From: Thermodesulfobacteriota bacterium
GTDB taxonomy: Bacteria > Desulfobacterota > BSN033 > UBA1163
Direction: 5' to 3'
DNA length: 64,000 nucleotides
Assembly: GCA_049514515.1 (NCBI GenBank)
Contig: JBEKUZ010000004.1
Span: 15,321 to 79,320 of the forward strand
Each line of letters starts with the position of its first letter. Position 1 is the first letter of the stretch. The translations under genes and the position numbers were made by a program. Shown here piece after piece: positions 27,517 through 46,922 of this stretch. Under the pieces are notes generated by a model. That model ran no database searches. It was not told where the DNA came from and was given only the letters and a program-made list of their open reading frames with translations.

Positions 27517-27540
27517 TAACGAGGGAAGAAACGCCAAGGC

Positions 27541-29835: not shown

Positions 29836-29861
29836 GGAGGAGGCTCCTTAAGGAGTTATAT

Positions 29862-31700: not shown

Positions 31701-31703
31701 ACC

Positions 31704-32270: not shown

Positions 32271-32365
32271 AAGATCGGGCGGCCTCGGAGGGCCGCCCCT
32301 ACAGACGTTAGAACCAAGTAGGGGAGTCCCTCTGCGGGCTCCCAACCCTTGAAGGAGAAAATTCC

Positions 32366-34689: not shown

Positions 34690-34694
34690 GAGGC

Positions 34695-34760
34695 AAGGGG
34701 TCGAGGGGTCGAACCACCCAAACTTGAACCCTGGAATCCTTAGAATCCTCGAACCCTTTT
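34695..34760. repeat. GGGGTCGAGGGGTCGAACC...CTTGAACCCTGGAATCC repeat-family copy
   Basis: Shares CTTGAACCC / GGAATCCT / GGGGTCGAG blocks with 26500-26545 and 59636-59780. Confidence 0.6.
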
Positions 34761-34770
34761 GGAGAAAACC

Positions 34771-35880
34771 ATGTACCAAAGATTTTATAGTCTGAGAGAA
34801 AAACCATTTGTCCTGACCCCTGACCCTCAATTTCTCTTCTTAAGCGAGGGCCATCGTACCGCGATCGAATCTCTTCTTTACGGGATTCGGCAGAAGGAAG
34901 GGTTTATGGTCATTACCGGAGATATCGGAACCGGGAAGACAACCATCTGCCGGGCCCTCTTGGAGAGATTGGATAAAAACGTGAAGACGGCGGTCATCTT
35001 CAATTCCTTCCTCACCGAAGAAGAATTGTTGGAAGCGATTCTCCGCGATTTCGGATTCTCTTCAAAGGGAAGGACCAAGAAGGAGCGGATCGATGCGCTG
35101 AACAAAATACTCATCTACTTCTTGTCCCACGGAAAGAATGCCGTCCTGATCATCGACGAGGCCCAGAATTTATCCATCCCTGTCCTGGAGCAGATTCGCA
35201 TGCTCTCCAATTTGGAGACGGAAAAGGAGAAATTGTTTCAGATCATATTATTTGGCCAGTTAGAGCTGGACCAAAAACTCCGGTCCGCCGAATTGAAACA
35301 ATTGAACCAACGGATCGCCATCCGGCATTACCTCCAGCCCCTCACCCAAACGGAAATGGAGTCTTATATTTACCAGCGTCTAATGATGGCAGGCTCTCAG
35401 GGGAGCATAACCTTTTCAAGATCTGCTCTCCACGAGATCTACAGATTTTCGAGAGGGGCGCCCAGGCTGATCAACCTTCTCTGCGATCGAGCCCTATTGG
35501 CCGGTTTCATCCAACAGACCCATTATTTCGACAAAGAAATTATCAAGCTGGCGAAGGACAGCCTTTTGGGAGAGGAAGCAGTCCCAAAGCCATTCTATTC
35601 TTTTCCCTTGCCAAGAAATTTAAGCTCGTTACGCATCCCGTTCTTGACGATTTTCCTTTTCTTAATGGCGGGTATGATCTCAACAAGCCAAGGCCATTTT
35701 CCTTCGCATCAAGATGCAAAGAATGCTATTGGGGGAAGAGTTCAAGGCATCTATTCTCGGATATCGGAATCTATTCCTCCTTCTATTCCTGCCCTTCCAC
35801 TGGATAAGGAACGGTTTCAAAATTCTGCAAAAGAGCCTTTCGAGAATCCAGAAAGGGCATCCCAGGAGGTTTCAAAATGA
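34771..35880 (+). CDS. ExeA/GspA-like AAA ATPase (MshM-like)
   Basis: Walker A GDIGTGKTT. IDEAQNL Walker B/sensor region. Overlaps the next gene by ATGA. Confidence 0.85.
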   Translation: MYQRFYSLREKPFVLTPDPQFLFLSEGHRTAIESLLYGIRQKEGFMVITGDIGTGKTTICRALLERLDKNVKTAVIFNSFLTEEELLEAILRDFGFSSKGRTKKERIDALNKILIYFLSHGKNAVLIIDEAQNLSIPVLEQIRMLSNLETEKEKLFQIILFGQLELDQKLRSAELKQLNQRIAIRHYLQPLTQTEMESYIYQRLMMAGSQGSITFSRSALHEIYRFSRGAPRLINLLCDRALLAGFIQQTHYFDKEIIKLAKDSLLGEEAVPKPFYSFPLPRNLSSLRIPFLTIFLFLMAGMISTSQGHFPSHQDAKNAIGGRVQGIYSRISESIPPSIPALPLDKERFQNSAKEPFENPERASQEVSK

Positions 35881-37127
35881 GCCTGATCATCGATGCCCTC
35901 AAAAGGGCACAACAGCTTCGATTGAGCGGGGCCGAGGAGTCTCCAACCTTGAACTATCCATACCCGAAGAGAAAAACGGGGAGGAGGTCTAAAAAACAAT
36001 GGATTCCCGTCGGCGCGGGTCTCATCGGCCTCTGTATCGTTCTACTCGTTCTTTTGCGACCTGCCTCTTCACCCTTGGCCACCCAAACCAATCGAGCCAT
36101 CGTTCCCGTGGAGAGGGAGCCTTCTGTTTCTGTAGCGGAGAAGATGCCTTCAGAGCCTCCGAAGGAAGTGGTGGGTGCGGCAAAGGATGAAGAACCGCTG
36201 TCTGCTGGATCTTCAGCCAAAGGCGATCGCCCGCAGGCGAGCCAGACCCTGAAGCCCGTCAACAGCAGGACTGAATCGGGGAAGGCAATAAATCCCGGCC
36301 ACGGTGGGAGTGGTTCGGGGCAAGCACGCCCTCAGGTATCCCTCAACGCTGGGGCGCCCCTCAGCGAGCACCCCTCTTATCCCCAAGAAGAGAAGAAGTC
36401 AGTTGAAACGGCGACATCTTCCACTGGAAAAAAGGGAGGACCGTTGAAAAAACAGGCACCCCCTCCTCTCGCCGCTCAGAAAGAAAATAAGCCCCTTAAG
36501 TCTATCGGGGTAGAACAGGAAGGCGGAAAGGCCGGCGCATTGGCCTCGGATGTCCTCACTCATTTCAATTCAGGGGTGACTTTCTATAACCAGAGAGAAT
36601 TTTCAAGAGCAATCCAGGCCTACCAGAAGGTTATCGAGCTGGATCCGACCTATGTCGAGGCCTATAACAATCTGGGGATCATCTATCAAACGATCGGGGA
36701 TGTGGACAGGGCCTTCGGAGCTTACCAGAAAGCAACGGAGATCAATCCAAGGTATGATAAAGGATATAATAATCTTGGGATCCTCCTTTTGCTCAAGGGC
36801 CGTGACGAAGAGGCGCTGGAGGATTTCCAAAAAGCTCTGGCCATCAATCCTAAGAATATCGAAAGTTTTATTAACCTCGGGACCCTTTTTAAGAAAAAAG
36901 GCCAGTGGGATGAGGCGATTGAGTCGTATCAGAAGGCTCTGGCGATTGATCGCCTCCACAGGGAGACGCACTACAATATGGCGCTGCTTTATGAACAAAT
37001 GGAGAAGTTAGAATTGGCGATCAGCCATTATCAACAATTTATCCGGCTCTCCTCGAGATCCGATCCGGAATTGGTCTCGCGGGTGCAAAGACATTTAAAC
37101 GATTTAATGAAGGCGAAAAATAGGTAA
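35877..37127 (+). CDS. TPR-repeat protein (MshN-like)
   Basis: N-terminal TM anchor, Pro/Ser-rich linker, then about 5 TPR repeats (AYNNLGIIYQ..., GYNNLGILLL...). Confidence 0.75.
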   Translation: MSLIIDALKRAQQLRLSGAEESPTLNYPYPKRKTGRRSKKQWIPVGAGLIGLCIVLLVLLRPASSPLATQTNRAIVPVEREPSVSVAEKMPSEPPKEVVGAAKDEEPLSAGSSAKGDRPQASQTLKPVNSRTESGKAINPGHGGSGSGQARPQVSLNAGAPLSEHPSYPQEEKKSVETATSSTGKKGGPLKKQAPPPLAAQKENKPLKSIGVEQEGGKAGALASDVLTHFNSGVTFYNQREFSRAIQAYQKVIELDPTYVEAYNNLGIIYQTIGDVDRAFGAYQKATEINPRYDKGYNNLGILLLLKGRDEEALEDFQKALAINPKNIESFINLGTLFKKKGQWDEAIESYQKALAIDRLHRETHYNMALLYEQMEKLELAISHYQQFIRLSSRSDPELVSRVQRHLNDLMKAKNR

Positions 37128-37210
37128 CGCATGAAAATCAGAAATCCCCCGGTAGGCAGGGGAGGATTGGGAAGTAGATTTTCTGGGTAATTGATCTTTG
37201 GAGGTATTCT

Positions 37211-38938
37211 ATGGCCGAGGAGAAAAAAAGTTTTGGAGATTTTCTGGTGAGATTGGGGGTCCTCAGCGCTGATCAGTTGAGAACAGCCTCCCAGGAACAG
37301 AAACAGAGAGGCGAACGCCTGGAACAGACCATCGTCCGGCTGGGTTATGCTAAAGAAGAGGTGATCCTGCAGGGCTTGGCCGATTATTTTAATCTCCCCT
37401 ATGTCGATCTCGACACCTATCTAATTGATGAGAATATCGTAAAAACCATCCCCGAAGACCTGGCGCGGCGCCATACATTAATCCCTCTCTTTAAGATCGG
37501 AAACACGTTGACGGTCGCCATGCCCGATCCCCTTAATCTCCTTGCATTGGATGAGGTGAGGAACAAGGTGAAGAACGACGTGGAGATAGCCATCGGCACC
37601 GAAAAAAAGATTAAAAAAGCGATTGAACAACACTACGGAGCCGCAGCCACGGTCTTTGAAAGTACCCTCCAGCAAATGGCACAGGGCAGCGTAGGCGGGC
37701 TGCCCCAGGAATCTACAGACTACAGAAAAACGCATGACCTCATTGCCAAAGACGTTCGGCCAGGAGCGATGGAAGATGCTTCTGCTGCCCGGGTGCTCGA
37801 TTTGGTCATGATTCAAGCCATTCGAGATCGGGCCAGCGATATTCATTTCGAACCCGACGAAAAGAACCTACGGGTCCGGTTACGAATTGACGGCTTTTTA
37901 TATGAATCTCTAACCCTCCCTAAGCCAATCCAGCCGGCCATCACTTCGAGGATTAAAATCCTGGCTGAGATGGATATTGCGGAGACGAGGCTTCCCCAGG
38001 ACGGAAATTTCAATGTCAAAATGGAGAAACGGGGTTTTGAAATCCGGGTCTCAACGTTTCCTACGATCTACGGTGAAAACGTGGTGCTTCGAATTCTTGA
38101 CCAGACCAGCCCCCTTTTCAAGCTGGATGATTTGGGGTTTTCCGGAGAGATGCTAAAACAATTCAAGCAACTGGTTCGAAAAACGAACGGGATCATCCTG
38201 GTCACCGGACCGACAGGCAGTGGGAAAACAACCACCCTCTACGGCCTCTTAAACATGATCAATTCGAAGGATAAAAACATTATCACCATAGAGGACCCTG
38301 TGGAGTACCGGTTGGCTCTGATCAGACAGACACAGATCAATCCCAAAGCAGGAATTAGCTTTGCCACGGGATTGAGGTCTATTCTCAGGCAGGACCCTGA
38401 TATCATCATGATCGGAGAGATCAGGGACCTGGAGACCTCAGAGATTGCGATGCAGGCAGCCCTGACAGGCCATCTGGTATTGAGCACGCTACATACGAAT
38501 GACGCGCCAGAGGCGATCTCCCGACTGATGGATATCGGCGTGGAGCCCTACCTCATCTCATCCTGTGTCATCGGGGTTTTAGCACAACGTCTGGTCCGGA
38601 CCATCTGTCCGGATTGCAAGGCGTCTTATCAGATTGACACGAAGGGCACGAGTGATCTTGGCGCTGACGTCTCGAAATCAAAAGGACCGTTAACCCTCTA
38701 TCGGGGGAAGGGCTGCAAAAATTGCAAACAGTCCGGATTCCGGGGAAGAACCGGGATCTTCGAGCTTCTCTTGGTCAATGACGAGATTAAGAAGCTTATT
38801 TCCGAAAGAGCTTCGGTCCAGGTGATTCGAGAGGTAGCGAAGAAGACGGCAGGAATGGTTCCCTTGAGAGAGGACGGCCTGGAAAAGGTTCTAAAAGGAA
38901 TTACCACCCTTAAAGAAGTGGATCGGGTGGCTTACTAA
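37211..38938 (+). CDS. pilB: Type IV pilus assembly ATPase PilB/GspE family (MshE-like)
   Basis: N-terminal T2SSE_N domain, Walker A GPTGSGKTTT, Asp/His boxes, C-terminal tetracysteine motif (CPDC...CKNC). Confidence 0.95.
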   Translation: MAEEKKSFGDFLVRLGVLSADQLRTASQEQKQRGERLEQTIVRLGYAKEEVILQGLADYFNLPYVDLDTYLIDENIVKTIPEDLARRHTLIPLFKIGNTLTVAMPDPLNLLALDEVRNKVKNDVEIAIGTEKKIKKAIEQHYGAAATVFESTLQQMAQGSVGGLPQESTDYRKTHDLIAKDVRPGAMEDASAARVLDLVMIQAIRDRASDIHFEPDEKNLRVRLRIDGFLYESLTLPKPIQPAITSRIKILAEMDIAETRLPQDGNFNVKMEKRGFEIRVSTFPTIYGENVVLRILDQTSPLFKLDDLGFSGEMLKQFKQLVRKTNGIILVTGPTGSGKTTTLYGLLNMINSKDKNIITIEDPVEYRLALIRQTQINPKAGISFATGLRSILRQDPDIIMIGEIRDLETSEIAMQAALTGHLVLSTLHTNDAPEAISRLMDIGVEPYLISSCVIGVLAQRLVRTICPDCKASYQIDTKGTSDLGADVSKSKGPLTLYRGKGCKNCKQSGFRGRTGIFELLLVNDEIKKLISERASVQVIREVAKKTAGMVPLREDGLEKVLKGITTLKEVDRVAY

Positions 38939-41570
38939 CGACGGCCCTTTTGCGTCGCCCGACCCATCCCAGACCAACACAACCTAAAATTCCCAGGATG
39001 GTTGCTCCAATACCCAACTTAAAACTCAAGGGATCATAAACAAATTCTACCTGATGTGTCCCGACACTCAGAGGAATTGCTCTGAATGTATAATCGGCCC
39101 TATATATTTTGGTTTCTTTCCCATCCACGAAAGCCTTCCACCCCGGATAGTAAGTATCGCTCAATACCAGCAGGCAATCTTTGGGAGCCTTCACCTGAAG
39201 GTCTAACCGGTTATTGCTCTCCGTCAAGATTTGGGCCTTCTGAGGGAGCCCACTGAGCGGCTCCCCTACATCATTCGTTCTTCGTAGGGGCGGCCCTCTG
39301 CGGCCGCTCTGGCTTGGGGTGGCTTCTTCCCCCTTTGCAAAAGGAACGGCGTGGGAACTTATCCATTTGGGTTCTTCTTCAAGAAAAACCTCCTGACCCG
39401 GACGAAATTCATTCTGGAGCATCATCAAAAGCATTTTTTGTAAGTCCATCACTTTGAAGTCTTTTACAAGCCATGCTCTCGGAAGAGGGCTGCGATTTTT
39501 ATATAGCTTTATGGTATTCTCTTTAAGGAGATCTTCCCTCTTTCCCTGAAGCCCTTCAAGGTTTGCATAAATCAACTCAAATTTATGGTTTTTCTCAAGA
39601 AGAGTAACAGAGGTAATATATTTCACACCGTAAAGATCTATGAGTTGCGTTGCTGAAATAGAAGGAGTACTGACAAAAATTCTATAAAGATCATCCGTTC
39701 GTTTTACTCGAATGACGTCAGCTCCCCAAAGGTCATGTAACTGATACAGGAGATTCATAGAAGGATAATGTTTTTCCTTCAATGTATTAAGAAATGAAGG
39801 GTCTCCAACCAAAATTGTAGCGTCTTGCGAAATAGTTTTGGCAGTTGAAAATACTCTAAAAAAGCCTTTGTCCGAAGAAATTGTTTTCAATATTTCAGTC
39901 TTTTGAAAATAGTCCGACGCTTTTTCTTTCCAGTAGTAGCCCATATTACCAAACAGGTCTGTTATCAGGAAAAGGATCAATAGAAGTTTTGTCCAACCCT
40001 TCCATTTCTTCTCGTAGCCGGTCCTTAGCAAGAGAAAGAAAAGAGCCAAGTAGAAGAAAAATCTTTTCGTATGGAAAAGGTTTGCAGAGAGATAATTGAA
40101 TTGCGGAAAATCAATCTCTCTTAGTTTCAAATATTGTTCAATACTTCTATGGCCTAAAGCCAGAAATAAAAGGAGTAGACCACTGATGAGAGAAAGCGTT
40201 GTGAGAAGGTTTTTAATTCTCTTCCCTCCACCCTCTTTTGAGAGATCGAACAACCGCTGAAACCCCATGCCTGCTGTAACAGAGAGGAGGAGAATAAAAA
40301 TATAGAGAAATTTTGCAGGATACCGGATTCCATTGAAAAATGGAATGTACTTAAAAACAAAAGGGTAGAGAGGATTGTAAGCGCCTAACGATAGAAAGAT
40401 CGAGAAGATCATGAGAATGAGAAAGAGCATCTTGTTGTCTTGGTGCGCTTCCGTTCGATCCTTTTCTTCAGAGGATAAGGTGCGGCGATGGGGCATGAGA
40501 AAGAAGATCAAGCTCAGTATAAAGGGAAGTCCTCCCGTATAGAGCGTTTTGAACCAGCATTGAACGGTCCAATATTTTTTCATATCTAAAAAATATCCAT
40601 AGGCATCGGGAAGAAAGAATAGAAGAATATCCTTGGGCGCAAAACTCCATGTGGTTGCTTCTTGATAGGAAATTCCATTTCCCCTGATAGAGTGATGAAA
40701 CAATTCGACAAAAGGGAATAATTGAACTGCGGAGAGAAACAAAAAGAGAATGGAAATAACCAAGAGACTTCTTATTCGTCCCCAATAAATGGGGGCGCTA
40801 CGGACGAATTTGGAAATGGAAAGGCTAAAAGGGGATTTGTGGCGTCGGGGTTTATCCCCGACAGAGTTGGCATATGGAAAGGGGGAGAAAATCACCATGA
40901 TTAAGAGAACAAAAAAATTACCATAGACAATTTCTATCCCTCCGCCCAAAAAAGAAATAGTGATCAGAATAGCCGTAAAAATCTCATTTTTTAAACCCCG
41001 TCCGTTGATCGCCCTTCTGAAAAACATCATGATCAAAGGCGTCCAGATACTCGAAAGGAGAATGGTCAGCAAACTATGGACGGAAAGGAGATACCCGCTG
41101 AGCATAAATGTCAGGCCCGAGATAAGGGAACCTGTTGCATTTATCTTAAAGTCTCTAAGGAGAAGGTAGGTGAATAATCCGCCCAAGAAGAAATGAAGAA
41201 TGATGATGGCATTAAAGGCCACATCGAAGGGGAGAAGAAAAAAAAGACCATTTAAGGGATAAAGGAGGGCATGCTGGGGGTTAGCAAAGAAGGGTTGGCC
41301 GGAGAATTGATAGGGATTCCATAAAGGGAAACTTCCATGCTTGATGCTTTCGACCCAGAAGAATCGCGGTGGAATGAAATAAGGACCTAAATCCCTTTCT
41401 ATGAGCAGAAACCTTTTCTCAAGGAGGTCATAAAAAAAGAACAGGGATAAAAAGAAAAGGGCCAGAACAGCCAAGAAATCCGGTGATCTGACCCATCCTA
41501 TTTTTTCTCTAATCTTTTCAATCACAAGGAGGCTGGTTTTACTGTATTCCTTCCTTATAAATCTCAACAA
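38910..41570 (-). CDS. YfhO-family polytopic membrane protein (GT-C-like putative glycosyltransferase)
   Basis: N-terminal region with GPYF...LWNPYQFSGQPFFANPQ..LYP, typical of YfhO. More than 12 TM helices plus a C-terminal periplasmic domain. The track start at 41570 is TTG without an SD, so the exact start is uncertain. Confidence 0.65.
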   Translation of the reverse strand: MLRFIRKEYSKTSLLVIEKIREKIGWVRSPDFLAVLALFFLSLFFFYDLLEKRFLLIERDLGPYFIPPRFFWVESIKHGSFPLWNPYQFSGQPFFANPQHALLYPLNGLFFLLPFDVAFNAIIILHFFLGGLFTYLLLRDFKINATGSLISGLTFMLSGYLLSVHSLLTILLSSIWTPLIMMFFRRAINGRGLKNEIFTAILITISFLGGGIEIVYGNFFVLLIMVIFSPFPYANSVGDKPRRHKSPFSLSISKFVRSAPIYWGRIRSLLVISILFLFLSAVQLFPFVELFHHSIRGNGISYQEATTWSFAPKDILLFFLPDAYGYFLDMKKYWTVQCWFKTLYTGGLPFILSLIFFLMPHRRTLSSEEKDRTEAHQDNKMLFLILMIFSIFLSLGAYNPLYPFVFKYIPFFNGIRYPAKFLYIFILLLSVTAGMGFQRLFDLSKEGGGKRIKNLLTTLSLISGLLLLFLALGHRSIEQYLKLREIDFPQFNYLSANLFHTKRFFFYLALFFLLLRTGYEKKWKGWTKLLLILFLITDLFGNMGYYWKEKASDYFQKTEILKTISSDKGFFRVFSTAKTISQDATILVGDPSFLNTLKEKHYPSMNLLYQLHDLWGADVIRVKRTDDLYRIFVSTPSISATQLIDLYGVKYITSVTLLEKNHKFELIYANLEGLQGKREDLLKENTIKLYKNRSPLPRAWLVKDFKVMDLQKMLLMMLQNEFRPGQEVFLEEEPKWISSHAVPFAKGEEATPSQSGRRGPPLRRTNDVGEPLSGLPQKAQILTESNNRLDLQVKAPKDCLLVLSDTYYPGWKAFVDGKETKIYRADYTFRAIPLSVGTHQVEFVYDPLSFKLGIGATILGILGCVGLGWVGRRKRAVVSKPPDPLL

Positions 41571-41618
41571 TCAATTCAAGACCGTCGTGTTACCATGTGC
41601 TACAACAATAGAACACCT

Positions 41619-41664
41619 CCAATAAACACCCTTTCCTTCTCTCCGTTGAGAGAAAGGAAAGGGT
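41619..41664 (-). terminator. Intrinsic terminator after pilin gene 1
   Basis: Minus strand: CACCCTTTCCTTTCTCTC-aacgg-AGAGAAGGAAAGGGTG followed by TTTATT. Confidence 0.6.
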
Positions 41665-41703
41665 GAGGAGAACATTTTGGATATAAGTTTGCCTATCCCT
41701 CTA

Positions 41704-42075
41704 TTACCACGTAGTATGTGCCGGACAGGTAATATTGGGGGGGGTAGCTGCATCTATTGAAAAACTATACGTAGCCGCTCCCACGGTTATAGTCAGATAG
41801 GTAGCATCTGAGCCAGCAACTTGAACTCCCTGCACTCCGGCAGAACCAACAATGCCCGTCCAATCCTCCGTAGTGGTTGTAACGTTCAATACGCGAGCTG
41901 CATACAATAGGGTATTCGCGGCTCTAAGGCCTCCTAATACCCCCCTTGCCGTGCCATCTTGAGCTTGAGTTGTCAAATCGACATATCTTGGGATGGCAAC
42001 TGCCGCAAGAATCCCGATGATCACAATAATTACGATTAACTCAATTAACGTGAAGCCCCTCTGATGTCTTAGCAT
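41704..42075 (-). CDS. Type IVa major pilin (MshA/PilA-like), copy 1
   Basis: MLRHQRG|FTLIELIVIIVIIGILAAVAIP. AAGGAG RBS. The start is trimmed to match the 7-aa leader of copy 2. Confidence 0.85.
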   Translation of the reverse strand: MLRHQRGFTLIELIVIIVIIGILAAVAIPRYVDLTTQAQDGTARGVLGGLRAANTLLYAARVLNVTTTTEDWTGIVGSAGVQGVQVAGSDATYLTITVGAATYSFSIDAATPPNITCPAHTTW

Positions 42076-42169
42076 ACATGCTCCTTTCCAAATCTTCAAG
42101 ATAAAACCCTTCCTGTAACGGAATTTTCTCTAAAATGAACTGCAGTCGTAAGCAACAACAGAGCACCTG

Positions 42170-42216
42170 CAATAAACACACCCTTTCTTTCTCTCCGTTA
42201 AGGGAAAGGAAAGGGT
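42170..42216 (-). terminator. Intrinsic terminator after pilin gene 2 (duplicate of the 41619-41664 terminator)
   Basis: Same long GC-rich hairpin plus TGTGTTTATT on the minus strand. Confidence 0.6.
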
Positions 42217-42255
42217 GAGGAGAACATTTTGGATATAAGTTTGCCTATCCCTCTA

Positions 42256-42627
42256 TTACCACGTAGTATGTGCCGGACAAGTAATAATGGGGGGAGTACC
42301 CGTATCCATTGAAAAACTATACGTAACCGCTCCCACGGTTATAGTTAGATACTGAGTACCTGAACCAGAAACTTGAACTCCCTGCAATCCGGCAGAACCA
42401 ACAATGCCCGTCCAATCCTGCGTAGTGGTTGTAACGTTCAATATGCGAGCTGCATATAACAGGGCATTCGCGCTTCTAAGGCCTCCTAATATCCCCCTTG
42501 CTGTGCCATCTTGAGCTTGAGTTGTCAAATCGACATATCTTGGGATGGCAACTGCCGCAAGAATCCCGATGATCACAATGATGACGATCAACTCAATTAA
42601 TGTGAAGCCCTTCCGATTTTTAAGCAT
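42256..42627 (-). CDS. Type IVa major pilin (MshA/PilA-like), copy 2
   Basis: MLKNRKG|FTLIELIVIIVIIGILAAVAIP. About 85% identical to copy 1. GGAGGAG RBS. Confidence 0.85.
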   Translation of the reverse strand: MLKNRKGFTLIELIVIIVIIGILAAVAIPRYVDLTTQAQDGTARGILGGLRSANALLYAARILNVTTTTQDWTGIVGSAGLQGVQVSGSGTQYLTITVGAVTYSFSMDTGTPPIITCPAHTTW

Positions 42628-42722
42628 ATTTTCTCCTCCTTGTCGAGAATTTATTGGTATTCACTCCATTTTGCACAATTTAATATCAGCTTGGAAATTC
42701 CTTGTCAAGTGAATTAGTTAAC

Positions 42723-42739
42723 AGCAATATTTATGCCAG
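42723..42739 (-). promoter_or_regulatory. Sigma-54-type (-24/-12) promoter candidate for the pilin genes
   Basis: Minus strand CTGGCAT-AAATA-TTGCT matches TGGCAY-N5-TTGCW, about 85-100 nt upstream of the pilin-2 ATG. A sigma-70-like TTGACA-N17-TATTAA lies just upstream as an alternative. Confidence 0.5.
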
Positions 42740-42897
42740 TCGAATCCAAAATTGGCAAAATCATTATACTAATAAAAAAATAAATGATTTCAAATAGTTA
42801 GTTGATGGCGGGTAGTTATTTTGAATTTAACAAGGATCAGCTTGCTAAGAAAAATGGACAAATTTTGCATGTTGGACAAAAATTGTTCGTTTTTTTG

Positions 42898-44041
42898 GTA
42901 ATTATTTACTTGACACACAAGAATTTTTATGCTACATTAATCTTAACAAATACTTGAAAGGAATATCTCATGGAAACAACAATTCAATTCCCAAAAACCT
43001 TACAGGAAGCAATCGCCTACTTTTCTGATTCTGACCGATGTTTTGAATATGCGGTAAAACTTAGATGGCCGAATGGAAAAATCACTTGCCCCCGTTGCGG
43101 ATCGGATAAACACTCTTTCATTTCAACACGTCGCCTTTGGTGGTGCAAGGGTTGCAAACAACAATTCACCATGAAAGTAAATACCATCTTCGAGGATAGC
43201 CCTCTTGGTATGGATAAATGGATGACTGCCCTTTGGTTGTTAGTGAATTGTAAAAATGGAATCAGTAGTTGCGAAGTCGCCCGTGATCTTGGAGTTACAC
43301 AAAAGACTGCATGGTTTATGTTACATAGACTACGCCTTGCTATGCAGACCGGATCATTCTCTAAACTTGGCGGAGAAGTTGAGGTTGACGAAACATTTAT
43401 TGGTGGCAAGGCCAGAAACATGCATCCCCAAAAGAAGAGCCTTAGAGTTACCGGAAGAGGGGGGAAGGATAAAGTCCCCGTTATGGGAATCTTGGAGCGT
43501 GGCGGAGAGGTTAGGACAGCCATCGTCCCAAGCCGGAAGAAGAAAGTTCTTCAAAACGAAATCAAGAAGCATGTTAAGGCAGGAAGCGCACTTTATAGTG
43601 ATGCCTTGCGGTCTTATGATGGGCTTGATTCAGAATTTGCTCACAAAGTCATTGACCACGCCGTTGCATACGTTGACGGTAAAGTCCATACAAACGGCCT
43701 TGAAAACTTCTGGAGTCTTTTGAAACGTAGCTTGAAGGGGACCTATGTCAGTGTAGAACCTTTTCATCTCTTCCGTTACTTGGATGAACAGAGTTTTCGT
43801 TTTAACAATCGGAAAGAAATGAATGATTCGGAAAGATTTGAAGAAGTGATGAGCCAAGTTTTAAATCGTCGCGTTACCTTTAATCAACTCACTGGCAAAG
43901 AAATTTCTACGACGCAACTCAATTAACCACAAACGTCAAGGACGGGGCAAGCGAAAGAAAAACTAACTCTTTCGCCTATGCCCTGTCTTACATTTTTTCT
44001 CTGCTTCTTTAATTTCGGACTTTGGTACCTTAAATAATTTC
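42898..44041 (+). mobile_element. IS1595-family insertion sequence (single transposase ORF). The ends are approximate.
   Basis: A DDE transposase with an N-terminal zinc ribbon fills the interval. Imperfect terminal inverted repeats GTAATTATTTAC (left) / GAAATTATTTAA (right, reverse complement). Transposase terminator hairpin at 43943-43995. No clean target-site duplication recognised. Confidence 0.5.
42970..43926 (+). CDS. IS1595-family transposase
   Basis: N-terminal zinc ribbon (CPRCGS...CKGC) + DDE domain (...VEVDETFIGG...YSDALRSYDGL...HAVAYVDGKVHTNGLENFWSLLKR). Confidence 0.9.
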   Translation: METTIQFPKTLQEAIAYFSDSDRCFEYAVKLRWPNGKITCPRCGSDKHSFISTRRLWWCKGCKQQFTMKVNTIFEDSPLGMDKWMTALWLLVNCKNGISSCEVARDLGVTQKTAWFMLHRLRLAMQTGSFSKLGGEVEVDETFIGGKARNMHPQKKSLRVTGRGGKDKVPVMGILERGGEVRTAIVPSRKKKVLQNEIKKHVKAGSALYSDALRSYDGLDSEFAHKVIDHAVAYVDGKVHTNGLENFWSLLKRSLKGTYVSVEPFHLFRYLDEQSFRFNNRKEMNDSERFEEVMSQVLNRRVTFNQLTGKEISTTQLN

Positions 44042-44103
44042 TTTAATGTGTTCTCAAAGTTCGTCTTTGCTTTGTTGCCTTCAATCATTTTAGGTTTCAT
44101 AAC

Positions 44104-45030
44104 TCACTCCGATAATTTAATTGAAAGACCTTCAAGAAATTCCTTTGTCCTCTCCATAATGCTAAGCGCTGGTTCTTCATCGTAGCTTTCCCTTGCATGG
44201 GCAACAAATATACGGTAACCGTTTTTAAAATGTCTAAATTGAGAAGCGGCTTCTGAACAAAATTTCAGTTCTTCGTCTCTTGCTGTACTTCTGGGAAGTT
44301 GTTGCTGTGTTTCTATTTTTTTTTCAATCTCTTTTATGAGAGCATTCCATTCAGCAAGATTAATCTCAAAAGGGAAAATCACGTTTAAATGTTGAGCCAA
44401 TGCCCGCAAACCTATTTCTGCTGCTCGCATTGAATGAAATACAGAAGCAGTATATTCACCAACAGTAAAAGAGTTCCCCGCATGTTGCAATTCCCTTAAC
44501 GCTTTTGGGAAAAAAGATATAAAACGCTCATTGAAATCTGATCGTTCGTAATATTTAGCTCGATGGGATGGAACAAAAAAGAATAGATGTTGACTCATTT
44601 CGACCTTAACTGCTTTTATTAATATCTCTAAAGTTTCTGAATTGCTTGGCGGAATGTCAAGTGCATCTTTTAATAAAGTTGAAGCGATTTTAAGATGCAT
44701 ATTATCACAATGGGTTTTTAATTTATTCAATAATTTTATAAAATCTATTTTCTCTTGATCTGTCAAAACCATTTCTTTATCTAACTCGCCAATATGGAGA
44801 CAAATTCCAATATCGTTGATCGTTTCTCCCATTTCTATGTATTCACTTGCTGCAAATTTAAGCATGTCTTCTAAACTCCAAAGTCGGAAAGGATTTTTGA
44901 CCCATGGCAATAGATGATCGTCCGAATCATTATCGCTTAATGAGGTTTGTGTGTCAAGTATAAATGGTTGGGGAAGATCAGGAGATTTTCGACGAGAAGA
45001 AAAAAATTCTTGCATTTGGCATACCTCCAT
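44104..45030 (-). CDS. Uncharacterised protein, possible HEPN-like (R-x4-H) domain
   Basis: Low-GC (~35%) gene. ...MRAAEIGLRALAQHLNV contains Rx4H. No confident family. Confidence 0.4.
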   Translation of the reverse strand: MEVCQMQEFFSSRRKSPDLPQPFILDTQTSLSDNDSDDHLLPWVKNPFRLWSLEDMLKFAASEYIEMGETINDIGICLHIGELDKEMVLTDQEKIDFIKLLNKLKTHCDNMHLKIASTLLKDALDIPPSNSETLEILIKAVKVEMSQHLFFFVPSHRAKYYERSDFNERFISFFPKALRELQHAGNSFTVGEYTASVFHSMRAAEIGLRALAQHLNVIFPFEINLAEWNALIKEIEKKIETQQQLPRSTARDEELKFCSEAASQFRHFKNGYRIFVAHARESYDEEPALSIMERTKEFLEGLSIKLSE

Positions 45031-45130
45031 GCTAAGATTTGGTTAGTACGGCCAAATGCGTTAGTTCTAAGGAAATCGGACTGCCATCCGATCTTCTTAT
45101 TCCTTCCGACGAGCGTTAATCCATAATAGC

Positions 45131-45787
45131 ATGGAGGACGCTCGGATGCAAGTCTTATTGTCTTTTAAACAACAAAAAATACTTAGAGCAATTAAAATCG
45201 TGTTCCCAAAAGTCAAAAATACGTGGCAATATTTTGAATCCCCTGGATATGTAGGGGTATTCGGTGCCATGACTTTATTTTATTTATCAGTAACACAGGG
45301 GCATATATACGTTGGATTATCTATCATAATTCTTGGAATATTTTTTGGATTTCTGGCTTCTTATAATTCAGGTAGACATAAATCAACTGACTTGGTTGAT
45401 GAATATGAAGAAAGATTTTTTATAAGAATGAAAGCAGAAAGGAAACATGCCGCCCAATACTTATTGGGAGAAATAAAAAACAATGCTTGCCTAAAATGGG
45501 TTCTTGATTACCTTGAAGCTCCAATAGCAGAAAAAGTTGTTAAAGAGCAAATTGATACTATGCAAGTTTACAGTTATTTCCGGCACTGGATCGAGTTGTA
45601 TTGGCAAGCAAGCCAAAAAGACATTCAGATATACCGCAAGAATGATCCTGGCGCGTGGCCAACATTAGGTAAGCTCTATAATATTATGATCACTCTTGAG
45701 AAAAAAGAATTAGGAGAACGATACGTCGGTTGGAATGAAGAACGTGTTGAGGAAGCATTAAAAGACGAAGCAAGTCTTGTGCTATAG
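45131..45787 (+). CDS. Uncharacterised membrane protein (2 predicted TM helices)
   Basis: Low-GC gene divergent from the gene at 44104-45030. TM hairpin GYVGVFGAMTLFYLSV...LSIIILGIFFGFLASY. Confidence 0.4.
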   Translation: MEDARMQVLLSFKQQKILRAIKIVFPKVKNTWQYFESPGYVGVFGAMTLFYLSVTQGHIYVGLSIIILGIFFGFLASYNSGRHKSTDLVDEYEERFFIRMKAERKHAAQYLLGEIKNNACLKWVLDYLEAPIAEKVVKEQIDTMQVYSYFRHWIELYWQASQKDIQIYRKNDPGAWPTLGKLYNIMITLEKKELGERYVGWNEERVEEALKDEASLVL

Positions 45788-45845
45788 TTCCATTTTGTCC
45801 AGTCTCAACCTCTGTGTGTCAAATATATAATTACCGTTTTTTTCA

Positions 45846-46922
45846 TTATCGGCGAGGACTTTCTCCCCTTATCTTTATTAATTCTGCTACAATGCTGACA
45901 GCGATTTCCTCAGGGGTTTCGGAGTTGATGTCAAGTCCGATGGGTGCGTGAACTCGTTCCAGCGTCTCTTTGGAGATTCCTTTTTTCTTCAAACTCTGAT
46001 AAAGAGTCTTAATCTTCTTCTTCGACCCTATCATTCCGATATACCGCGCGTTTGTCTTGATTGCCTGTTCCAGCACGAAGCCATCATAAAGATGACCTCG
46101 GGTGACGATGACAATATATGAGGAATCATCAACATCGAGTCGGTCGAAGCACTTCTCAAATTCTGACACGACGACTTCGTCCACTTCTGGGAAACGCTCT
46201 CGATTGGCAAACATCTCCCGGTCATCGATGACCATCACCCTGAAATGGACTTTCTTGACAAGAGGAGCCAACTGTTCAGAAATATGGCCTCCCCCAAAAA
46301 TATAGACCGTCGGCTCACAAAAAACGGGTTCCAGCAGGACTTCCACCTTTCTCTGTTCAGAATTTAAGACTGACATCTTCGGCCTTTTCTCTTTTAATAA
46401 TATCTTACCTTCACTCAAAAGCTTTTTCCGTAATTCCACTCCGCCAAATAAAGAACCGAACTTCTCTCCGGAAGTCTTCATCAATATCTTCGGGCCTTCT
46501 CTTTTTGGAAAATCAGCATCCACCGAGACCAGCGTAGCCAAAATAGCTGACCCGCCCTTCTGTCTTATCTTTGCCGCCTCCTGGTAGATGCTTAAGAAAT
46601 CTTCTTCAAGGGGTTCCAAAAAGATGTCAATATTTCCCCCGCAGATCAGCCCACCTTCTGCCAATTGCTCAGACGTAAGGTCGAAATGGAGAATTCGCCC
46701 CTTCCCTGTCTCCATCACTTTTTGAGCTTCTTGCCAAACCTCTGCCTCAACGCATCCTCCCCCAATAGAGCCGACAGAAGTTCCGTCTCCTTTAACCAAA
46801 TATTTCGCGCCCACTGCCCTGGGGGCAGAGCCTATCCGGTTGACCAGAGTAGCAAGTGCACACTTTTCTTTGTTCTCAAGGGCTCTCACTATATCAACGT
46901 ATATGTCCTGCACGATCCTCAT
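45846..46922 (-). CDS. xdhC: XdhC/CoxI-family molybdenum-hydroxylase accessory protein
   Basis: XdhC_CoxI N-terminal domain + XdhC Rossmann C-terminal domain (VYIFGGGHISEQLAPL). Confidence 0.85.
   Translation of the reverse strand: MRIVQDIYVDIVRALENKEKCALATLVNRIGSAPRAVGAKYLVKGDGTSVGSIGGGCVEAEVWQEAQKVMETGKGRILHFDLTSEQLAEGGLICGGNIDIFLEPLEEDFLSIYQEAAKIRQKGGSAILATLVSVDADFPKREGPKILMKTSGEKFGSLFGGVELRKKLLSEGKILLKEKRPKMSVLNSEQRKVEVLLEPVFCEPTVYIFGGGHISEQLAPLVKKVHFRVMVIDDREMFANRERFPEVDEVVVSEFEKCFDRLDVDDSSYIVIVTRGHLYDGFVLEQAIKTNARYIGMIGSKKKIKTLYQSLKKKGISKETLERVHAPIGLDINSETPEEIAVSIVAELIKIRGESPRR

What the first reader, a model, noticed from the sequence alone, without database searches (positions are those of the whole stretch)
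41571..42760. Tandem ~530-bp duplication giving two major pilin genes, each with its own strong terminator; sigma-54-type promoter upstream; an IS1595 element directly abuts the promoter region
41571-42099 and 42100-42627 are near-identical (pilin CDS about 85% aa identity; the 3' flanks with the long GC hairpin + T-tract are duplicated too). Only copy 2 has the upstream CTGGCAT-N5-TTGCT (-24/-12) element at 42723-42739; copy 1 would depend on read-through. The IS1595 left end (about 42898) is about 160 bp from this promoter, so the insertion may alter the enhancer region normally used by a PilR-type activator, or pilin expression.
Basis: seen in the sequence. Interest (0 to 1): 0.5.

Follow-up and report, generated by a model that had tools for sequence, protein, structure and literature searches.

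The report
Duplicated pilin genes with dual promoter
An uncultured peat/soil deltaproteobacterium carries two adjacent, slightly diverged copies of its MSHA-type pilus subunit gene. A conserved control region with both sigma-54 and sigma-70 promoter signals lies upstream, and a mobile element has landed just outside it without damaging it, so this is a well-explained, fairly ordinary locus.

Summary
Two 123-aa type IV pilin genes on the minus strand (42627-42256 and 42075-41704) lie in a tandem direct repeat. The period is 552 bp, not about 530. About 485 bp is 90.5% identical and the proteins match at 104/123 residues. Each gene is followed by a 39-nt hairpin and a short U-rich tail.

The duplication appears in many independent metagenome assemblies and in three IS-free relatives, so it is not an assembly artefact. 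Both copies are under purifying selection.

TGGCAT-N5-TTGCT (42738-42723) is the only such site in the 64 kb. It is conserved upstream of the first pilin gene in at least 18 related lineages, together with a palindrome (TGGACAAAAATTGTCCA) about 130-150 bp upstream that looks like an activator-binding enhancer. The locus most likely has tandem sigma-54 and sigma-70 promoters.

The "IS1595" is a 2,939-bp transporter IS (42897-45835) with 23-bp inverted repeats, an 8-bp target duplication and two passenger genes. It inserted 3 bp after the xdhC-like stop, at the outer edge of the distal palindrome. Every conserved control element is intact.

No rpoN or activator gene lies in the window.

This is a new member of known kinds, of modest interest.

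The parts
42256..42627 (-). Leader MLKNRKG, cleavage G|FTLIE, Glu at mature position 5.
   Evidence: ORF. Pfam N_methyl E = 4.4e-9. NCBIfam prepilin domain. AF2 model pLDDT 86.7 with helix 10-62 and a 3-stranded sheet. PDB profile hit to MshA 9lab_B.
41704..42075 (-). The true start is the ATG at 42075, not the TTG at 42099.
   Evidence: (gene callers place a 123-aa product here).
42153..42637 (-). Repeat unit A: Shine-Dalgarno, pilin CDS, 3' UTR hairpin and tail.
   Evidence: blastn self-hit, 485 nt at 90.5% identity. The repeat finder families D1/D2, spacing 550-552.
41603..42085 (-). Repeat unit B, the downstream copy of unit A.
42170..42217 (-). Hairpin (42217-42179, dG -19.4 kcal/mol) plus tail UGUUUAUUG after the upstream pilin gene. 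Probable leaky intrinsic terminator or attenuator.
   Evidence: The same hairpin is present in L006, L091, L008 and L016.
41616..41665 (-). Hairpin (41665-41627, dG -25.6 kcal/mol) plus tail UUUAUUGG after the downstream pilin gene, in front of the YfhO-like gene.
   Evidence: (z = -3.7 against shuffles).
42723..42738 (-). Sigma-54-type -24/-12 element TGGCAT-AAATA-TTGCT. Predicted start site is near 42712.
   Evidence: Unique in the window. Conserved upstream of the first pilin gene in 18 (strict) to 23 (relaxed) related loci with diverged flanks.
42680..42708 (-). Sigma-70-type promoter: -35 TTGACA (42708-42703), 17-nt spacer with TG at -15/-14, -10 TATTAA (42685-42680). Predicted start site is near 42673.
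   Evidence: Sequence. TTGACA-N16-18-TAnnnH is conserved at -57 to -105 from the ATG in 23 related loci, 98-fold enriched.
42873..42889 (.). Distal palindrome cGAACAATTTTTGTCCA (consensus TGGACAAAAATTGTCCA). Candidate activator-binding enhancer site, starting 151 nt upstream of the -24 TGG.
   Evidence: Only match in the window within 3 mismatches. In relatives, 18 of 21 hits in 463 kb lie 195-271 nt upstream of the first pilin ATG.
42855..42869 (-). Proximal, weaker repeat tGCAAAATTTGTCCA, about 20 nt from the distal site. Candidate second enhancer site.
   Evidence: Two sites about 21-22 nt apart are seen in L010, L011, L016, L029 and L047.
42769..42800 (-). Conserved AT-rich block TAACTATTTGAAATCATTTATTTTTTT between the enhancer and the -24 element. 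It matches the IHF consensus weakly (2 mismatches).
   Evidence: Conserved in WIN (the window's own locus in these alignments), L006, L008, L009, L010, L011 and L091, and more loosely in L012, L016, L017 and L031. The IHF consensus is quoted from PMC7962754.
42897..45835 (+). IS1595-family transporter IS, 2,939 bp. It carries the transposase (42970-43926, +), a HEPN-domain protein (44104-45030, -) and a 218-aa protein of no known family (45131-45787, +).
   Evidence: Absent from L006, L091 and L092 at exactly these borders. Pfam DDE_Tnp_IS1595 E = 8.9e-44 plus Zn ribbon. NCBIfam IS1595 195 bits against a cut-off of 75.
42897..42919 (+). Left terminal inverted repeat GGTAATTATTTACTTGACACACA. 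It contains the -35 of the transposase promoter.
   Evidence: The same sequence heads IS1595 transposase genes in about 45 unrelated metagenome contigs.
45813..45835 (-). Right terminal inverted repeat GGTAATTATATATTTGACACACA.
42889..42896 (.). 8-bp target-site duplication, pilin side (AAAAAAAC on the minus strand).
45836..45843 (.). 8-bp target-site duplication, xdhC side. It begins after a 2-nt gap from the xdhC-like stop codon (45846-45848).
38910..41525 (-). YfhO-family (GT-C type) membrane protein, 871 aa from GTG 41525, directly downstream of the pilin pair. Its synteny with pilin genes is conserved.
   Evidence: Pfam YfhO 70 bits against a cut-off of 28.5. Gene calls. A pilin-like ORF lies immediately upstream of the homologue in all but one (L022, too little upstream sequence) of the 40 close loci scanned, and in 17 of 32 distant homologues.
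45846..46922 (-). xdhC-like gene, the native upstream neighbour of the pilin promoter region.
   Evidence: PF02625/PF13478. Synteny in L006, L091 and many other loci.

Best explanation
The two genes are tandem paralogues of the major subunit of an MSHA-like type IV pilus. The organism is an uncultured Thermodesulfobacteriota (Syntrophales-like) bacterium.

A unit consisting of ribosome-binding site, pilin CDS and 3' hairpin was duplicated before this lineage split from its relatives L006 and L091/L092. Both copies have since been kept by purifying selection, with some gene conversion.

Transcription starts upstream of the first copy only, from a composite control region that is conserved across the clade. 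It consists of:
- one or two palindromic sites (TGGACAAAAATTGTCCA), inferred to bind an enhancer-binding activator;
- an AT-rich, possibly IHF-bent spacer;
- a sigma-54 -24/-12 promoter;
- a sigma-70 -35/extended -10 promoter 14 nt further downstream.

I infer that the sigma-70 promoter gives basal expression and the sigma-54 promoter gives signal-dependent expression.

The weaker hairpin after the first gene (-19.4 kcal/mol) lets some transcripts continue into the second pilin gene. The stronger hairpin after the second gene (-25.6 kcal/mol) limits transcription into the YfhO-like gene, which probably modifies the pilin.

The IS1595-family transporter IS inserted at the outer edge of the control region and left it intact. 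It most likely has little or no effect on pilin expression.

Shown here: the anatomy, the conservation, the IS borders, the empty site and the selection pattern. Inferred: promoter use, the activator's identity, read-through and glycosylation.
For: Duplication and its age:
- Searches show the repeat.
- Two copies are present in L001-L003, L006 and L091/L092.
- dN/dS between orthologues is 0.29 and 0.18 (window versus L091) and at most 0.08 (window versus L006). Between the paralogues it is 0.53.
- The C-terminal halves of the two L091 copies are 94.3% identical, against 89-91% to their orthologues, which indicates gene conversion.
- Copy number varies from 1 to 4 across about 40 related loci. 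Paralogues from one genome usually cluster together in the tree.

Pilin identity:
- (some sources name homologues MshA).
- The neighbouring cluster has T2SSF, minor pilins, a PilM-PilN fusion, an MshL-like secretin, AAA_22 and TPR proteins, and an ATPase with the MshEN domain.

Sigma-54 element:
- It is unique in the window.
- All 18 strict hits in relatives are upstream of the first pilin gene.
- The distant relatives L048 and L049 carry a histidine kinase and a receiver/Sigma54_activat/HTH_8 regulator directly upstream of a -24/-12 site and the pilin.

Enhancer palindrome:
- (about 190-fold enrichment at a near-constant position).
- It is never found in loci without a sigma-54-like element.

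Sigma-70 element.

Hairpins.

IS.

Precedents:
- RpoN/PilR-dependent pilA in Geobacter (PMC2725144).
- pilE promoters with both -10/-35 and -12/-24 sequences in Neisseria (PMC6755734).
Against: - There are no transcript data, so neither start site nor read-through is shown.
- No rpoN and no Sigma54_activat gene lies in the 64-kb window or in the 10 kb beyond either end.
- The window's -10 hexamer TATTAA lacks the usually invariant final T, and the simple promoter scanner did not list it.
- The sigma-54 core is degenerate in L019, L035 and L029 and absent from seven loci. It is therefore dispensable in some lineages.
- The -35-like cTTGACAAaa resembles a half-site of the palindrome, so it could instead be a regulator site.
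- The hairpin tails are short and interrupted. Covariation support for the hairpin is minimal, because 2 of 20 pairs show compensatory change and most pairs are invariant.
- A weak conserved TTGCTT-N17-TAGAGA lies in the inter-copy spacer. An internal promoter cannot be excluded.
Confidence: 0.6

Rival explanations
1. Only the sigma-70 promoter is used. The -24/-12 element and the palindromes are an evolutionary relic or are silent, as in pathogenic Neisseria pilE.
For: - The TTGACA/-10 element is the more widely conserved of the two. It is present in loci that have no sigma-54-like element.
- The sigma-54 core carries -12 mutations in L019 (TTGT) and L035 (TTGG).
- No rpoN or activator gene is found in the window or its flanks.
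- Precedent: in N. meningitidis MC58 and N. gonorrhoeae the -12/-24 sequence plays no role in pilin transcription (PMC6755734).
Against: - A silent relic would not keep 16 nt nearly invariant across lineages whose YfhO proteins are only 54-77% identical and whose flanking DNA is randomised.
- It would also not keep a palindrome at a fixed 126-151 nt upstream.
- PilS/PilR-like genes are adjacent in L048 and L049.
- S. aciditrophicus is reported to encode pilS and pilR (10.1101/479683).
Confidence: 0.2
2. Only the sigma-54 promoter is used. The conserved cTTGACAAaa downstream of it is a regulator-binding half-site related to the upstream palindrome, for example a repressor or activator operator, and not a -35 hexamer.
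For: - TTGACAAAA resembles the palindrome half-site TGGACAAAA. In L019 and L030 the upstream palindrome itself reads TTGACAAAAATTG.
- The window's -10 hexamer TATTAA is imperfect.
Against: - The element is followed at 16-18 nt by a TA-rich -10-like hexamer, often preceded by TG, in 23 loci. It keeps a tighter distance to the ATG than to the sigma-54 site.
- It occurs in loci that lack any sigma-54-like element or palindrome, where it is the only promoter-like signal.
Confidence: 0.08
3. The IS insertion does change pilin expression. It may crowd the distal enhancer site with the IS end and the divergent transposase promoter. It may also cut the promoter off from sequences in or transcription from the xdhC-like gene.
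For: - The IS end lies 7 bp from the distal palindrome, and the outermost palindrome base is part of the target duplication.
- The transposase -35 (42910-42915) lies about 20 bp from the palindrome.
- In six relatives the xdhC coding sequence runs right up to the -24 element. Upstream control sequences can therefore lie inside xdhC in this clade.
Against: - All elements conserved in IS-free relatives lie on the pilin side of the IS, in a stretch (42894-40880) that is 97.5% identical to L006.
- The IS-bearing allele is the one recovered on every window-identical contig returned, from several JGI and ENA samples. It is evidently not strongly counter-selected.
- No outward-facing promoter towards the pilin was found at the IS end.
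Confidence: 0.15
4. The downstream pilin copy has its own promoter in the 67-nt unique spacer and does not depend on read-through.
For: A weak TTGCTT-N17-TAGAGA lies at about 42153-42125. It is kept as TTGCCT-N17-TAGAGA in L091.
Against: - The match to consensus is poor, with no -24/-12 site, no TTGACA and no palindrome there.
- In many relatives tandem pilin copies are only about 30-45 nt apart, which implies co-transcription.
Confidence: 0.12
5. The duplication is an assembly artefact.
For: One contig (L090) breaks 40 nt upstream of a chimeric pilin gene. Its 5' end is of the upstream-copy type from another strain and the rest is identical to the downstream copy. This shows that assemblers struggle here.
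Against: - The copies differ at about 9.5% of positions, so they are easily resolved.
- The identical arrangement is seen in independent JGI and ENA assemblies on contigs of 60-109 kb, and in diverged relatives.
- Collapse would remove copies, not create diverged ones.
Confidence: 0.02

Closest known systems
Geobacter sulfurreducens pilA with its RpoN-dependent promoter and PilS/PilR (PMC2725144)
   Same: Both have a major pilin gene in a deltaproteobacterial-type lineage preceded by a -24/-12 promoter that depends on an enhancer-binding activator. In the distant relatives L048 and L049 the regulator genes sit directly upstream of the pilin, as they do in Geobacter.
   Different: In the window's clade the activator gene is not adjacent, and xdhC is the upstream neighbour. 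The pilin is a full-length 116-aa MshA-like protein, not the truncated geopilin. It is duplicated and followed by a YfhO-like gene. A conserved sigma-70 promoter lies downstream of the sigma-54 site.
Neisseria pilE promoter regions carrying both -10/-35 and -12/-24 sequences (PMC6755734)
   Same: Sigma-70-type and sigma-54-type promoter elements lie together upstream of a major pilin gene. Lineages differ in which element is retained or used.
   Different: In pathogenic Neisseria the sigma-54 element is silent because RpoN is defective. Here it is under visible sequence constraint together with a candidate enhancer. The two elements lie in tandem, with 7-38 nt of variable spacing in relatives.
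Vibrio/Shewanella MSHA pilus locus and the MshA major pilin (PDB 9lab)
   Same: The family profile's best solved match is MshA (E = 2.5e-16). The neighbouring genes encode an MshL-like secretin, an ATPase with the c-di-GMP-binding MshEN domain, and MshM-like and MshN-like proteins.
   Different: The pilin genes lie on the opposite strand, convergent with the assembly operon. The pilin has a single Cys and so no disulfide loop. The NCBIfam MshL score is below its cut-off (224 against 250).
Pilin genes followed by a dedicated glycosyltransferase (P. aeruginosa pilA-tfpO and pilA-tfpW; from my own knowledge) and YfhO-type GT-C enzymes (B. subtilis CsbB/YfhO, PMC5836110; Streptococcus PgfM1/M2 in NCBIfam)
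   Same: A large polytopic GT-C-type membrane protein is encoded immediately downstream of the major pilin. The pilin has Thr/Ser-rich and Pro/Thr-rich surface segments. In L091 and L092 a GT2 enzyme and a methyltransferase follow the YfhO gene, which recalls the CsbB/YfhO pairing.
   Different: The enzyme belongs to the YfhO family, not to the Wzy_C-type (TfpO/PglL) or arabinosyltransferase-type (TfpW) families. No biochemical link between YfhO proteins and pilins came up in the paper search. Modification of this pilin is untested.
Transporter IS of the IS1595 family (Siguier, Gagnevin and Chandler 2009, as cited in PMC3129680)
   Same: It has a DDE_Tnp_IS1595 transposase with an N-terminal zinc ribbon, terminal inverted repeats, an 8-bp AT-rich target duplication, and passenger genes unrelated to transposition.
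   Different: The passengers here are a HEPN-domain protein and a 218-aa protein of unknown family. A third copy of the IR core lies inside the HEPN ORF (44943-44963). The element has no ISfinder name that I could check.

Membership tests
Type IV pilin (prepilin-peptidase substrate) | Short basic leader ending in Gly, Phe at +1, Glu at +5, about 20 hydrophobic residues (N_methyl motif) | tested here: met
   MLKNRKG|FTLIELIVIIVIIGILAAVAIP and MLRHQRG|FTLIEL... Pfam PF07963 scores 36 and 37 bits against a cut-off of 21.2. TIGR02532 matches.
Type IV pilin (prepilin-peptidase substrate) | Long N-terminal alpha-helix packed on an antiparallel beta-sheet | tested here: met
Type IVa pilin | C-terminal disulfide-bonded loop (two Cys) | tested here: not met
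   There is one Cys per mature protein, nearly invariant across the family, and an invariant C-terminal Trp.
MSHA-type major pilin (MshA) | Sequence relationship to MshA, and location with msh assembly genes | tested here: inconclusive
   The best solved match is MshA 9lab_B, E = 2.5e-16 over profile positions 3-98. Some JGI records name homologues MshA. The neighbours are MshL-like (224 bits, below the 250 cut-off) and an MshEN-domain ATPase. No MshA-specific curated model was available. A role as the major subunit is inferred.
Sigma-54-dependent promoter | GG at -24 and GC at -12 with fixed spacing, matching TGGCAC-N5-TTGCW | tested here: met
   TGGCAT-AAATA-TTGCT at 42738-42723. It is the only match in 64 kb, where 0.13 is expected. 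It is conserved in 18-23 related loci.
Sigma-54-dependent promoter | Upstream activator (enhancer) sites about 80-150 bp upstream | tested here: met
   The conserved palindrome TGGACAAAAATTGTCCA starts 119-151 nt upstream of the -24 TGG in 16 loci and in the window. Binding by an activator is inferred, not shown.
Sigma-54-dependent promoter | rpoN and a cognate AAA+ activator encoded in the genome | not testable with these tools
   None is in the window or in the 10 kb beyond each end. PilS/PilR-like genes are adjacent in the distant relatives L048 and L049.
Sigma-54-dependent promoter | Transcript start about 12 nt downstream of the -12 GC | not testable with these tools
   No transcript data are available.
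Sigma-70 promoter | -35 TTGACA, 17 +/- 1 nt spacer, -10 TATAAT with A at position 2 and T at position 6 | tested here: inconclusive
   The window has a perfect -35, a 17-nt spacer and an extended -10 TG. The -10 is TATTAA, which lacks the final T, so the scanner did not list it. Conservation in 23 loci at a fixed distance from the ATG argues for function.
Intrinsic (Rho-independent) terminator | Stable G+C-containing stem-loop immediately followed by a U-tract | tested here: inconclusive
   The stems are 15-17 bp, with dG -19.4 and -25.6 kcal/mol. The tails are UGUUUAUU and UUUAUUGG, which are short and interrupted. The consensus scanner did not call them. In L016 the same hairpin has no U-tract.
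IS1595 family insertion sequence | DDE_Tnp_IS1595 transposase with an N-terminal zinc ribbon | tested here: met
   PF12762 E = 8.9e-44 and PF12760 E = 1.7e-14. NF033547 scores 195 bits against a cut-off of 75.
IS1595 family insertion sequence | Terminal inverted repeats and an 8-bp target-site duplication, with a demonstrable empty site | tested here: met
   The IRs are at 42897-42919 and 45813-45835, 21 of 23 positions complementary. The duplication AAAAAAAC is at 42889-42896 and 45836-45843. Empty sites are seen in L006 and L091. That 8 bp is typical for the family rests on my own knowledge.
YfhO family (GT-C fold glycosyltransferase) | Match to the family model above its curated threshold | tested here: met
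   PF09586 scores 70 bits against a cut-off of 28.5, but the best stretch covers only the C-terminal part. There are weak hits to PgfM1/M2 and no solved relative by sequence.
YfhO family (GT-C fold glycosyltransferase) | Transfers sugar from a lipid carrier to an extracytoplasmic acceptor (here the pilin) | not testable with these tools
   Only the conserved gene order supports this.

The most novel reading that the evidence does not exclude
The conserved pair of pilin gene(s) followed by a YfhO-family GT-C membrane protein marks a previously undescribed, widespread pilin O-glycosylation system. The pair is seen in nearly all of the roughly 40 Thermodesulfobacteriota-type loci and in 17 of 32 distant homologues from Omnitrophota, Planctomycetota, Elusimicrobiota and Nitrospirota. 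In this reading, the recurrent tandem amplification of the pilin (1-4 copies), separated here by a leaky attenuator and driven by a sigma-54/sigma-70 dual promoter, sets the ratio of pilin variants presented to that enzyme.
Probability: 0.3. Interest if true: 0.55.

Novelty: new member of a known kind. Interest (0 to 1): 0.3.

Why it matters
The finding as given is ordinary. Duplicated major pilin genes, sigma-54 pilin promoters and nearby insertion sequences are all well known, and here the IS turns out to be harmless to the control region.

The follow-up adds a cleanly defined regulatory architecture, shared by dozens of uncultured Syntrophales-like lineages from peat, soil and groundwater. 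It consists of an enhancer palindrome, an AT-rich spacer, a sigma-54 promoter and a sigma-70 promoter.

This gives concrete, testable sites for anyone studying pilus expression in syntrophic bacteria, where pili have been linked to interspecies electron transfer (10.1101/479683).

It also yields a natural IS-plus versus IS-minus allele pair for testing enhancer boundaries. It further yields a strong gene-order lead that YfhO-type enzymes act on pilins.

Tried and rejected
- Rfam search of 41300-43000 gave only chance hairpin hits well below threshold, so no known RNA family explains the very conserved 3' UTR.
- PADLOC gave nothing for the IS passenger proteins.
- Looking up the exact transposase protein returned only this same locus, so it gave no second insertion site of the identical element. 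The IR pattern scan then showed the wider IS family.
- The hunt for rpoN or an activator gene found nothing. Pfam scans of essentially all large window ORFs, a GAFTGA motif scan of the window and all loci, and 10-kb extensions at both window ends showed none in this organism's available DNA.
- P0002 looked like a single-copy recombinant pilin. Its contig ends 40 nt upstream and its 5' part comes from another strain, so it cannot be told apart from an assembly chimera.
- A Fisher test of the palindrome against a strictly intact sigma-54 core was not significant (p = 0.27). Three palindrome-bearing loci have point-mutated cores, and six loci have xdhC coding sequence where the palindrome would lie. 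The informative fact is that no locus lacking any sigma-54-like element has the palindrome.
- The e-pilin idea was considered and set aside. The mature pilins have 6.9% aromatic residues, below the 9% criterion quoted in 10.1101/479683.
- The assembly-artefact explanation was rejected.


Full report
**1. What is in the sequence**

All features of the finding lie on the minus strand. Their leaders are MLKNRKG|FTLIEL and MLRHQRG|FTLIEL.

The ORF lister extends the downstream gene to a TTG at 42099. Gene callers on identical metagenome contigs place a 123-aa product there instead.

The true direct repeat is 42637-42153 against 42085-41603. It spans 485 nt at 90.5% identity with a period of 550-552 bp. 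The proteins are identical at 104 of 123 positions, and the CDSs differ at 35 of 372 nt.

Each gene is followed by a duplicated 3' flank. The first 52 nt after the stop codon are identical between the copies. A 39-nt hairpin then follows:
- 42217-42179 has dG -19.4 kcal/mol and the tail UGUUUAUUG.
- 41665-41627 has dG -25.6 kcal/mol and the tail UUUAUUGG.

The stems are strong but the U-tracts are short and interrupted. The simple terminator scanner did not call them. "Strong terminator" is therefore too confident, and "probable leaky terminator" is fairer.

**2. Is the duplication real, and how old is it?**

The exact window sequence, with both copies, occurs on contigs of 60-109 kb from independent JGI and ENA assemblies.

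Three diverged relatives also have two copies in the same order:
- L006 is about 97% identical to the window.
- L091 and L092 are about 90% identical.

An assembly artefact is therefore excluded. One contig (L090) does break at the repeat and carries a chimeric gene. That shows assemblers can stumble here, but it cannot be read as a real recombinant.

Selection on the two copies:

| Comparison | dN/dS |
|---|---|
| Window vs L091, upstream copy | 0.29 |
| Window vs L091, downstream copy | 0.18 |
| Window vs L006, either copy | at most 0.08 |
| Upstream vs downstream copy, whole CDS | 0.53 |
| Upstream vs downstream copy, C-terminal half | 0.87 |

Both copies are thus maintained. Their surface-exposed halves have diverged.

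In L091 the C-terminal halves of the two copies are more alike (94.3%) than either is to its orthologue (89-91%). This indicates gene conversion.

**3. Wider context**

The YfhO-like gene downstream (38910-41525) was used to fetch 79 loci from species-representative genomes. The closest are MAGs labelled Thermodesulfobacteriota, delta proteobacterium or Syntrophaceae, with up to 77% identity.

In all but one (L022, too little upstream sequence) of the 40 close loci scanned, one to four tandem pilin genes lie directly upstream of the YfhO homologue. In a neighbour-joining tree of 69 pilin copies, paralogues from one genome usually cluster together. Tandem amplification, or homogenisation, of this pilin gene therefore recurs in the clade. 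The window is one instance of it.

The pilin family is large, with more than 5,000 hits, and some sources name members MshA. Its profile's best solved match is the Shewanella MshA major pilin (9lab_B, E = 2.5e-16). The Thermus PilA5 narrow-pilus subunit also matches.

An AlphaFold model (pLDDT 86.7) shows the pilin fold. Mature proteins have a single Cys, so the usual disulfide loop is absent.

On the plus strand, convergent with the pilin genes, lies an MSHA-like assembly cluster at 24591-38938. It encodes:
- a T2SSF platform protein;
- three minor pilins;
- a LamG-domain protein;
- a PilM-PilN fusion;
- an MshL-like secretin;
- AAA_22 and TPR proteins;
- an ATPase with the c-di-GMP-binding MshEN domain.

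Calling these two genes the major subunit genes of that system is a reasonable inference, not a demonstration.

**4. The promoter region**

TGGCATAAATATTGCT (42738-42723) is the only match to TGGCAY-N5-TTGCW in the window, where 0.13 is expected by chance.

In the related loci the strict pattern occurs 18 times in 926 kb counting both strands. All 18 lie on the pilin strand within 320 nt upstream of the first pilin gene. A relaxed pattern adds five more loci. The flanking DNA in these loci is otherwise diverged. This is strong comparative evidence for a functional sigma-54 promoter.

Three further conserved blocks emerged.

*Palindrome.* The consensus is TGGACAAAAATTGTCCA, often in two copies about 21-22 nt apart. 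It starts 119-151 nt upstream of the -24 TGG. Within 3 mismatches, 18 of 21 hits in 463 kb of related loci fall 195-271 nt upstream of the first pilin ATG. The window has the distal site at 42873-42889, its only match in 64 kb, and a weaker proximal site at 42855-42869. The palindrome never occurs in the seven loci that lack any sigma-54-like element. I read it as the binding site of an enhancer-binding activator. That is an inference.

*AT-rich block.* It lies at 42769-42800 between the palindromes and the -24 element and is conserved in the closer relatives. Its match to the IHF consensus WATCARNNNNTTR is weak.

*Sigma-70-type promoter.* Fourteen nt downstream of the sigma-54 element lie cTTGACAa, a 17-nt spacer, and TGaTATTAA (42708-42680). 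It is conserved in 23 loci at -57 to -105 from the ATG, a 98-fold enrichment. Four of the seven loci with no sigma-54-like element have it, and the printed upstream sequences show the same element in three more (L021, L032, L046) that narrowly miss the strict pattern. L019, L029 and L035, which have point-mutated sigma-54 cores, also show it.

The most economical reading is a tandem dual promoter. Neisseria pilE regions likewise carry both -10/-35 and -12/-24 sequences, and lineages differ in which one is used (PMC6755734). Geobacter pilA is RpoN- and PilR-dependent (PMC2725144).

In two distant relatives (L048, a Syntrophorhabdus MAG, and L049) a histidine kinase and a receiver/Sigma54_activat/HTH_8 regulator sit directly upstream of a -24/-12 site and the pilin.

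For the window's own organism, no rpoN or activator gene lies in the 64 kb or within 10 kb beyond either end. The rest of the genome could not be scanned.

**5. Expression of the second copy**

No -24/-12 site, TTGACA or palindrome precedes the downstream copy. Only a weak TTGCTT-N17-TAGAGA lies in the 67-nt spacer. Both copies have good Shine-Dalgarno sequences.

In many relatives tandem copies are only about 30-45 nt apart, which implies co-transcription.

The hairpin that must be read through is the weaker of the two, at -19.4 against -25.6 kcal/mol. I therefore favour partial read-through. That would give more upstream-copy than downstream-copy mRNA, and still less YfhO mRNA.

The basal 11-12 bp of the hairpin are invariant across L006, L091, L008 and L016. 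Only two apical pairs show compensatory change, so covariation support is thin.

**6. The insertion sequence**

Relative L006 aligns to the window up to 45834 and resumes at 42894, with an 8-bp overlap.

The inserted segment is 42897-45835 (2,939 bp). Its features are:
- 23-nt inverted repeats GGTAATTAT[T/A]TA[C/T]TTGACACACA at both ends;
- a flanking 8-bp duplication, AAAAAAAC on the minus strand, at 42889-42896 and 45836-45843;
- the IS1595-family transposase;
- a HEPN-domain protein and a 218-aa protein of unknown family as passengers.

It is therefore a transporter IS of the kind described for this family (Siguier et al. 2009, cited in PMC3129680).

The same IR sequence heads IS1595 transposase genes (40-92% identical) in about 45 unrelated metagenome contigs. 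Three of these have HEPN-like passengers. The ends are thus genuine, and the family is widespread in soil and peat.

The insertion point is 2 nt past the xdhC-like stop codon. It is also at the very edge of the distal palindrome, whose outermost base is the first base of the duplicated target. Every conserved control element lies between the IS end and the pilin gene, and the flanking stretch 42894-40880 is 97.5% identical to L006.

A subtle effect cannot be excluded, because the IS end and the divergent transposase promoter lie within 7-40 bp of the distal site.

**7. Comparison and verdict**

Each component belongs to a known kind:
- a type IV (MshA-like) pilin;
- tandem paralogues;
- a sigma-54 promoter with enhancer;
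- a sigma-70 promoter;
- a terminator-like hairpin;
- an IS1595-family transporter IS.

The new results are comparative:
- the composite control region is shared across many uncultured lineages;
- the IS-plus and IS-minus alleles are defined to the base;
- the pilin-YfhO gene pair is strongly conserved.

That pair extends to 17 of 32 distant YfhO homologues in other phyla. In L091 and L092 it is accompanied by a GT2 enzyme and a methyltransferase. It suggests pilin glycosylation by a YfhO-type GT-C enzyme. A paper search returned no study linking YfhO proteins to pilins.

I rate the given finding as a new member of known kinds, with interest 0.3.

Noticed in passing
window 38910-41525 (-); loci L008-L086: A YfhO-family GT-C membrane protein is encoded directly downstream of 1-4 pilin genes in all but one of the 40 close loci scanned. 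The same holds in 17 of 32 distant homologues (26-32% identity) from Omnitrophota, Planctomycetota, Elusimicrobiota and Nitrospirota. In L091 and L092 a methyltransferase and a GT2 enzyme follow it. This suggests a dedicated pilin glycosylation module. The pilins have Thr-rich (NVTTTT) and Pro/Thr-rich segments.
   Followed up: partly
window 42204-42255 and 41652-41703 (-): The first 52 nt after each pilin stop codon are identical between the two copies and nearly so in L091. This stretch includes a small GGATA/TATCC hairpin and the motif GGATAGG/CAAAC. It is more conserved than the coding sequence (dS about 0.16). No Rfam family matches. The reason for the constraint is unexplained.
   Followed up: partly
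window 44943-44963 (-), inside the HEPN ORF: A third copy of the IS inverted-repeat core (TTTATACTTGACACACAAA) lies 875 bp inside the right end, in the same orientation as the right IR. It may be a relic of an older, shorter element or an internal transposase-binding site.
   Followed up: no
loci L096-L149: The 23-nt IR GGTAATTATNTANTTGACACACA heads IS1595-type transposase genes (40-92% identical to the window's) in about 45 unrelated soil and peat metagenome contigs. HEPN-like passenger genes recur in three of them (L108, L131, L140).
   Followed up: partly
loci L013, L020, L023, L026, L040, L044: In these relatives the xdhC-like coding sequence runs right up to the -24 element. By my reading of the frame in L013, its stop codon lies inside TGGCATAA. 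There is no intergenic room for an enhancer, and no palindrome is found there. Their sigma-54 promoter must be activated differently or from within xdhC.
   Followed up: no
L090:1-640: This contig starts 40 nt upstream of a chimeric pilin gene. Its first 105 nt or so are of the upstream-copy type from another strain, and the rest is identical to the window's downstream copy. It is either an assembly chimera at the repeat or a real single-copy recombinant, and the two cannot be told apart.
   Followed up: partly
window 19754-24565 (+): Two hybrid histidine kinases and a single-domain response regulator sit immediately upstream of the pilus assembly operon. One kinase has three PAS domains, and the other has a receiver plus a partial GGDEF domain. 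The assembly ATPase carries the c-di-GMP-binding MshEN domain. This points to c-di-GMP-linked control of assembly, separate from pilin transcription.
   Followed up: no
L091/L092 pilin pair: The C-terminal halves and 3' hairpins of the two pilin copies in the L091 lineage share derived changes (94.3% identical, against 89-91% to their orthologues). This indicates gene conversion between the tandem copies.
   Followed up: yes
window ends; L093/L094 and L095: The window matches NCBI assembly GCA_002311635.1, contig DBZJ01000009.1 (93 kb), and 108-kb JGI and ENA contigs. Ten kb beyond the left end lies a second secretion-related pair (T2SSB-domain protein and an AAA_22/PG_binding protein) and a GT2 gene.
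   Followed up: no
alignment A2 (pilin family): The family keeps one nearly invariant Cys four to six residues from an invariant C-terminal Trp, and has no second Cys. The window's subgroup has a 6-residue deletion in the Pro/Thr-rich segment that most members carry.
   Followed up: no
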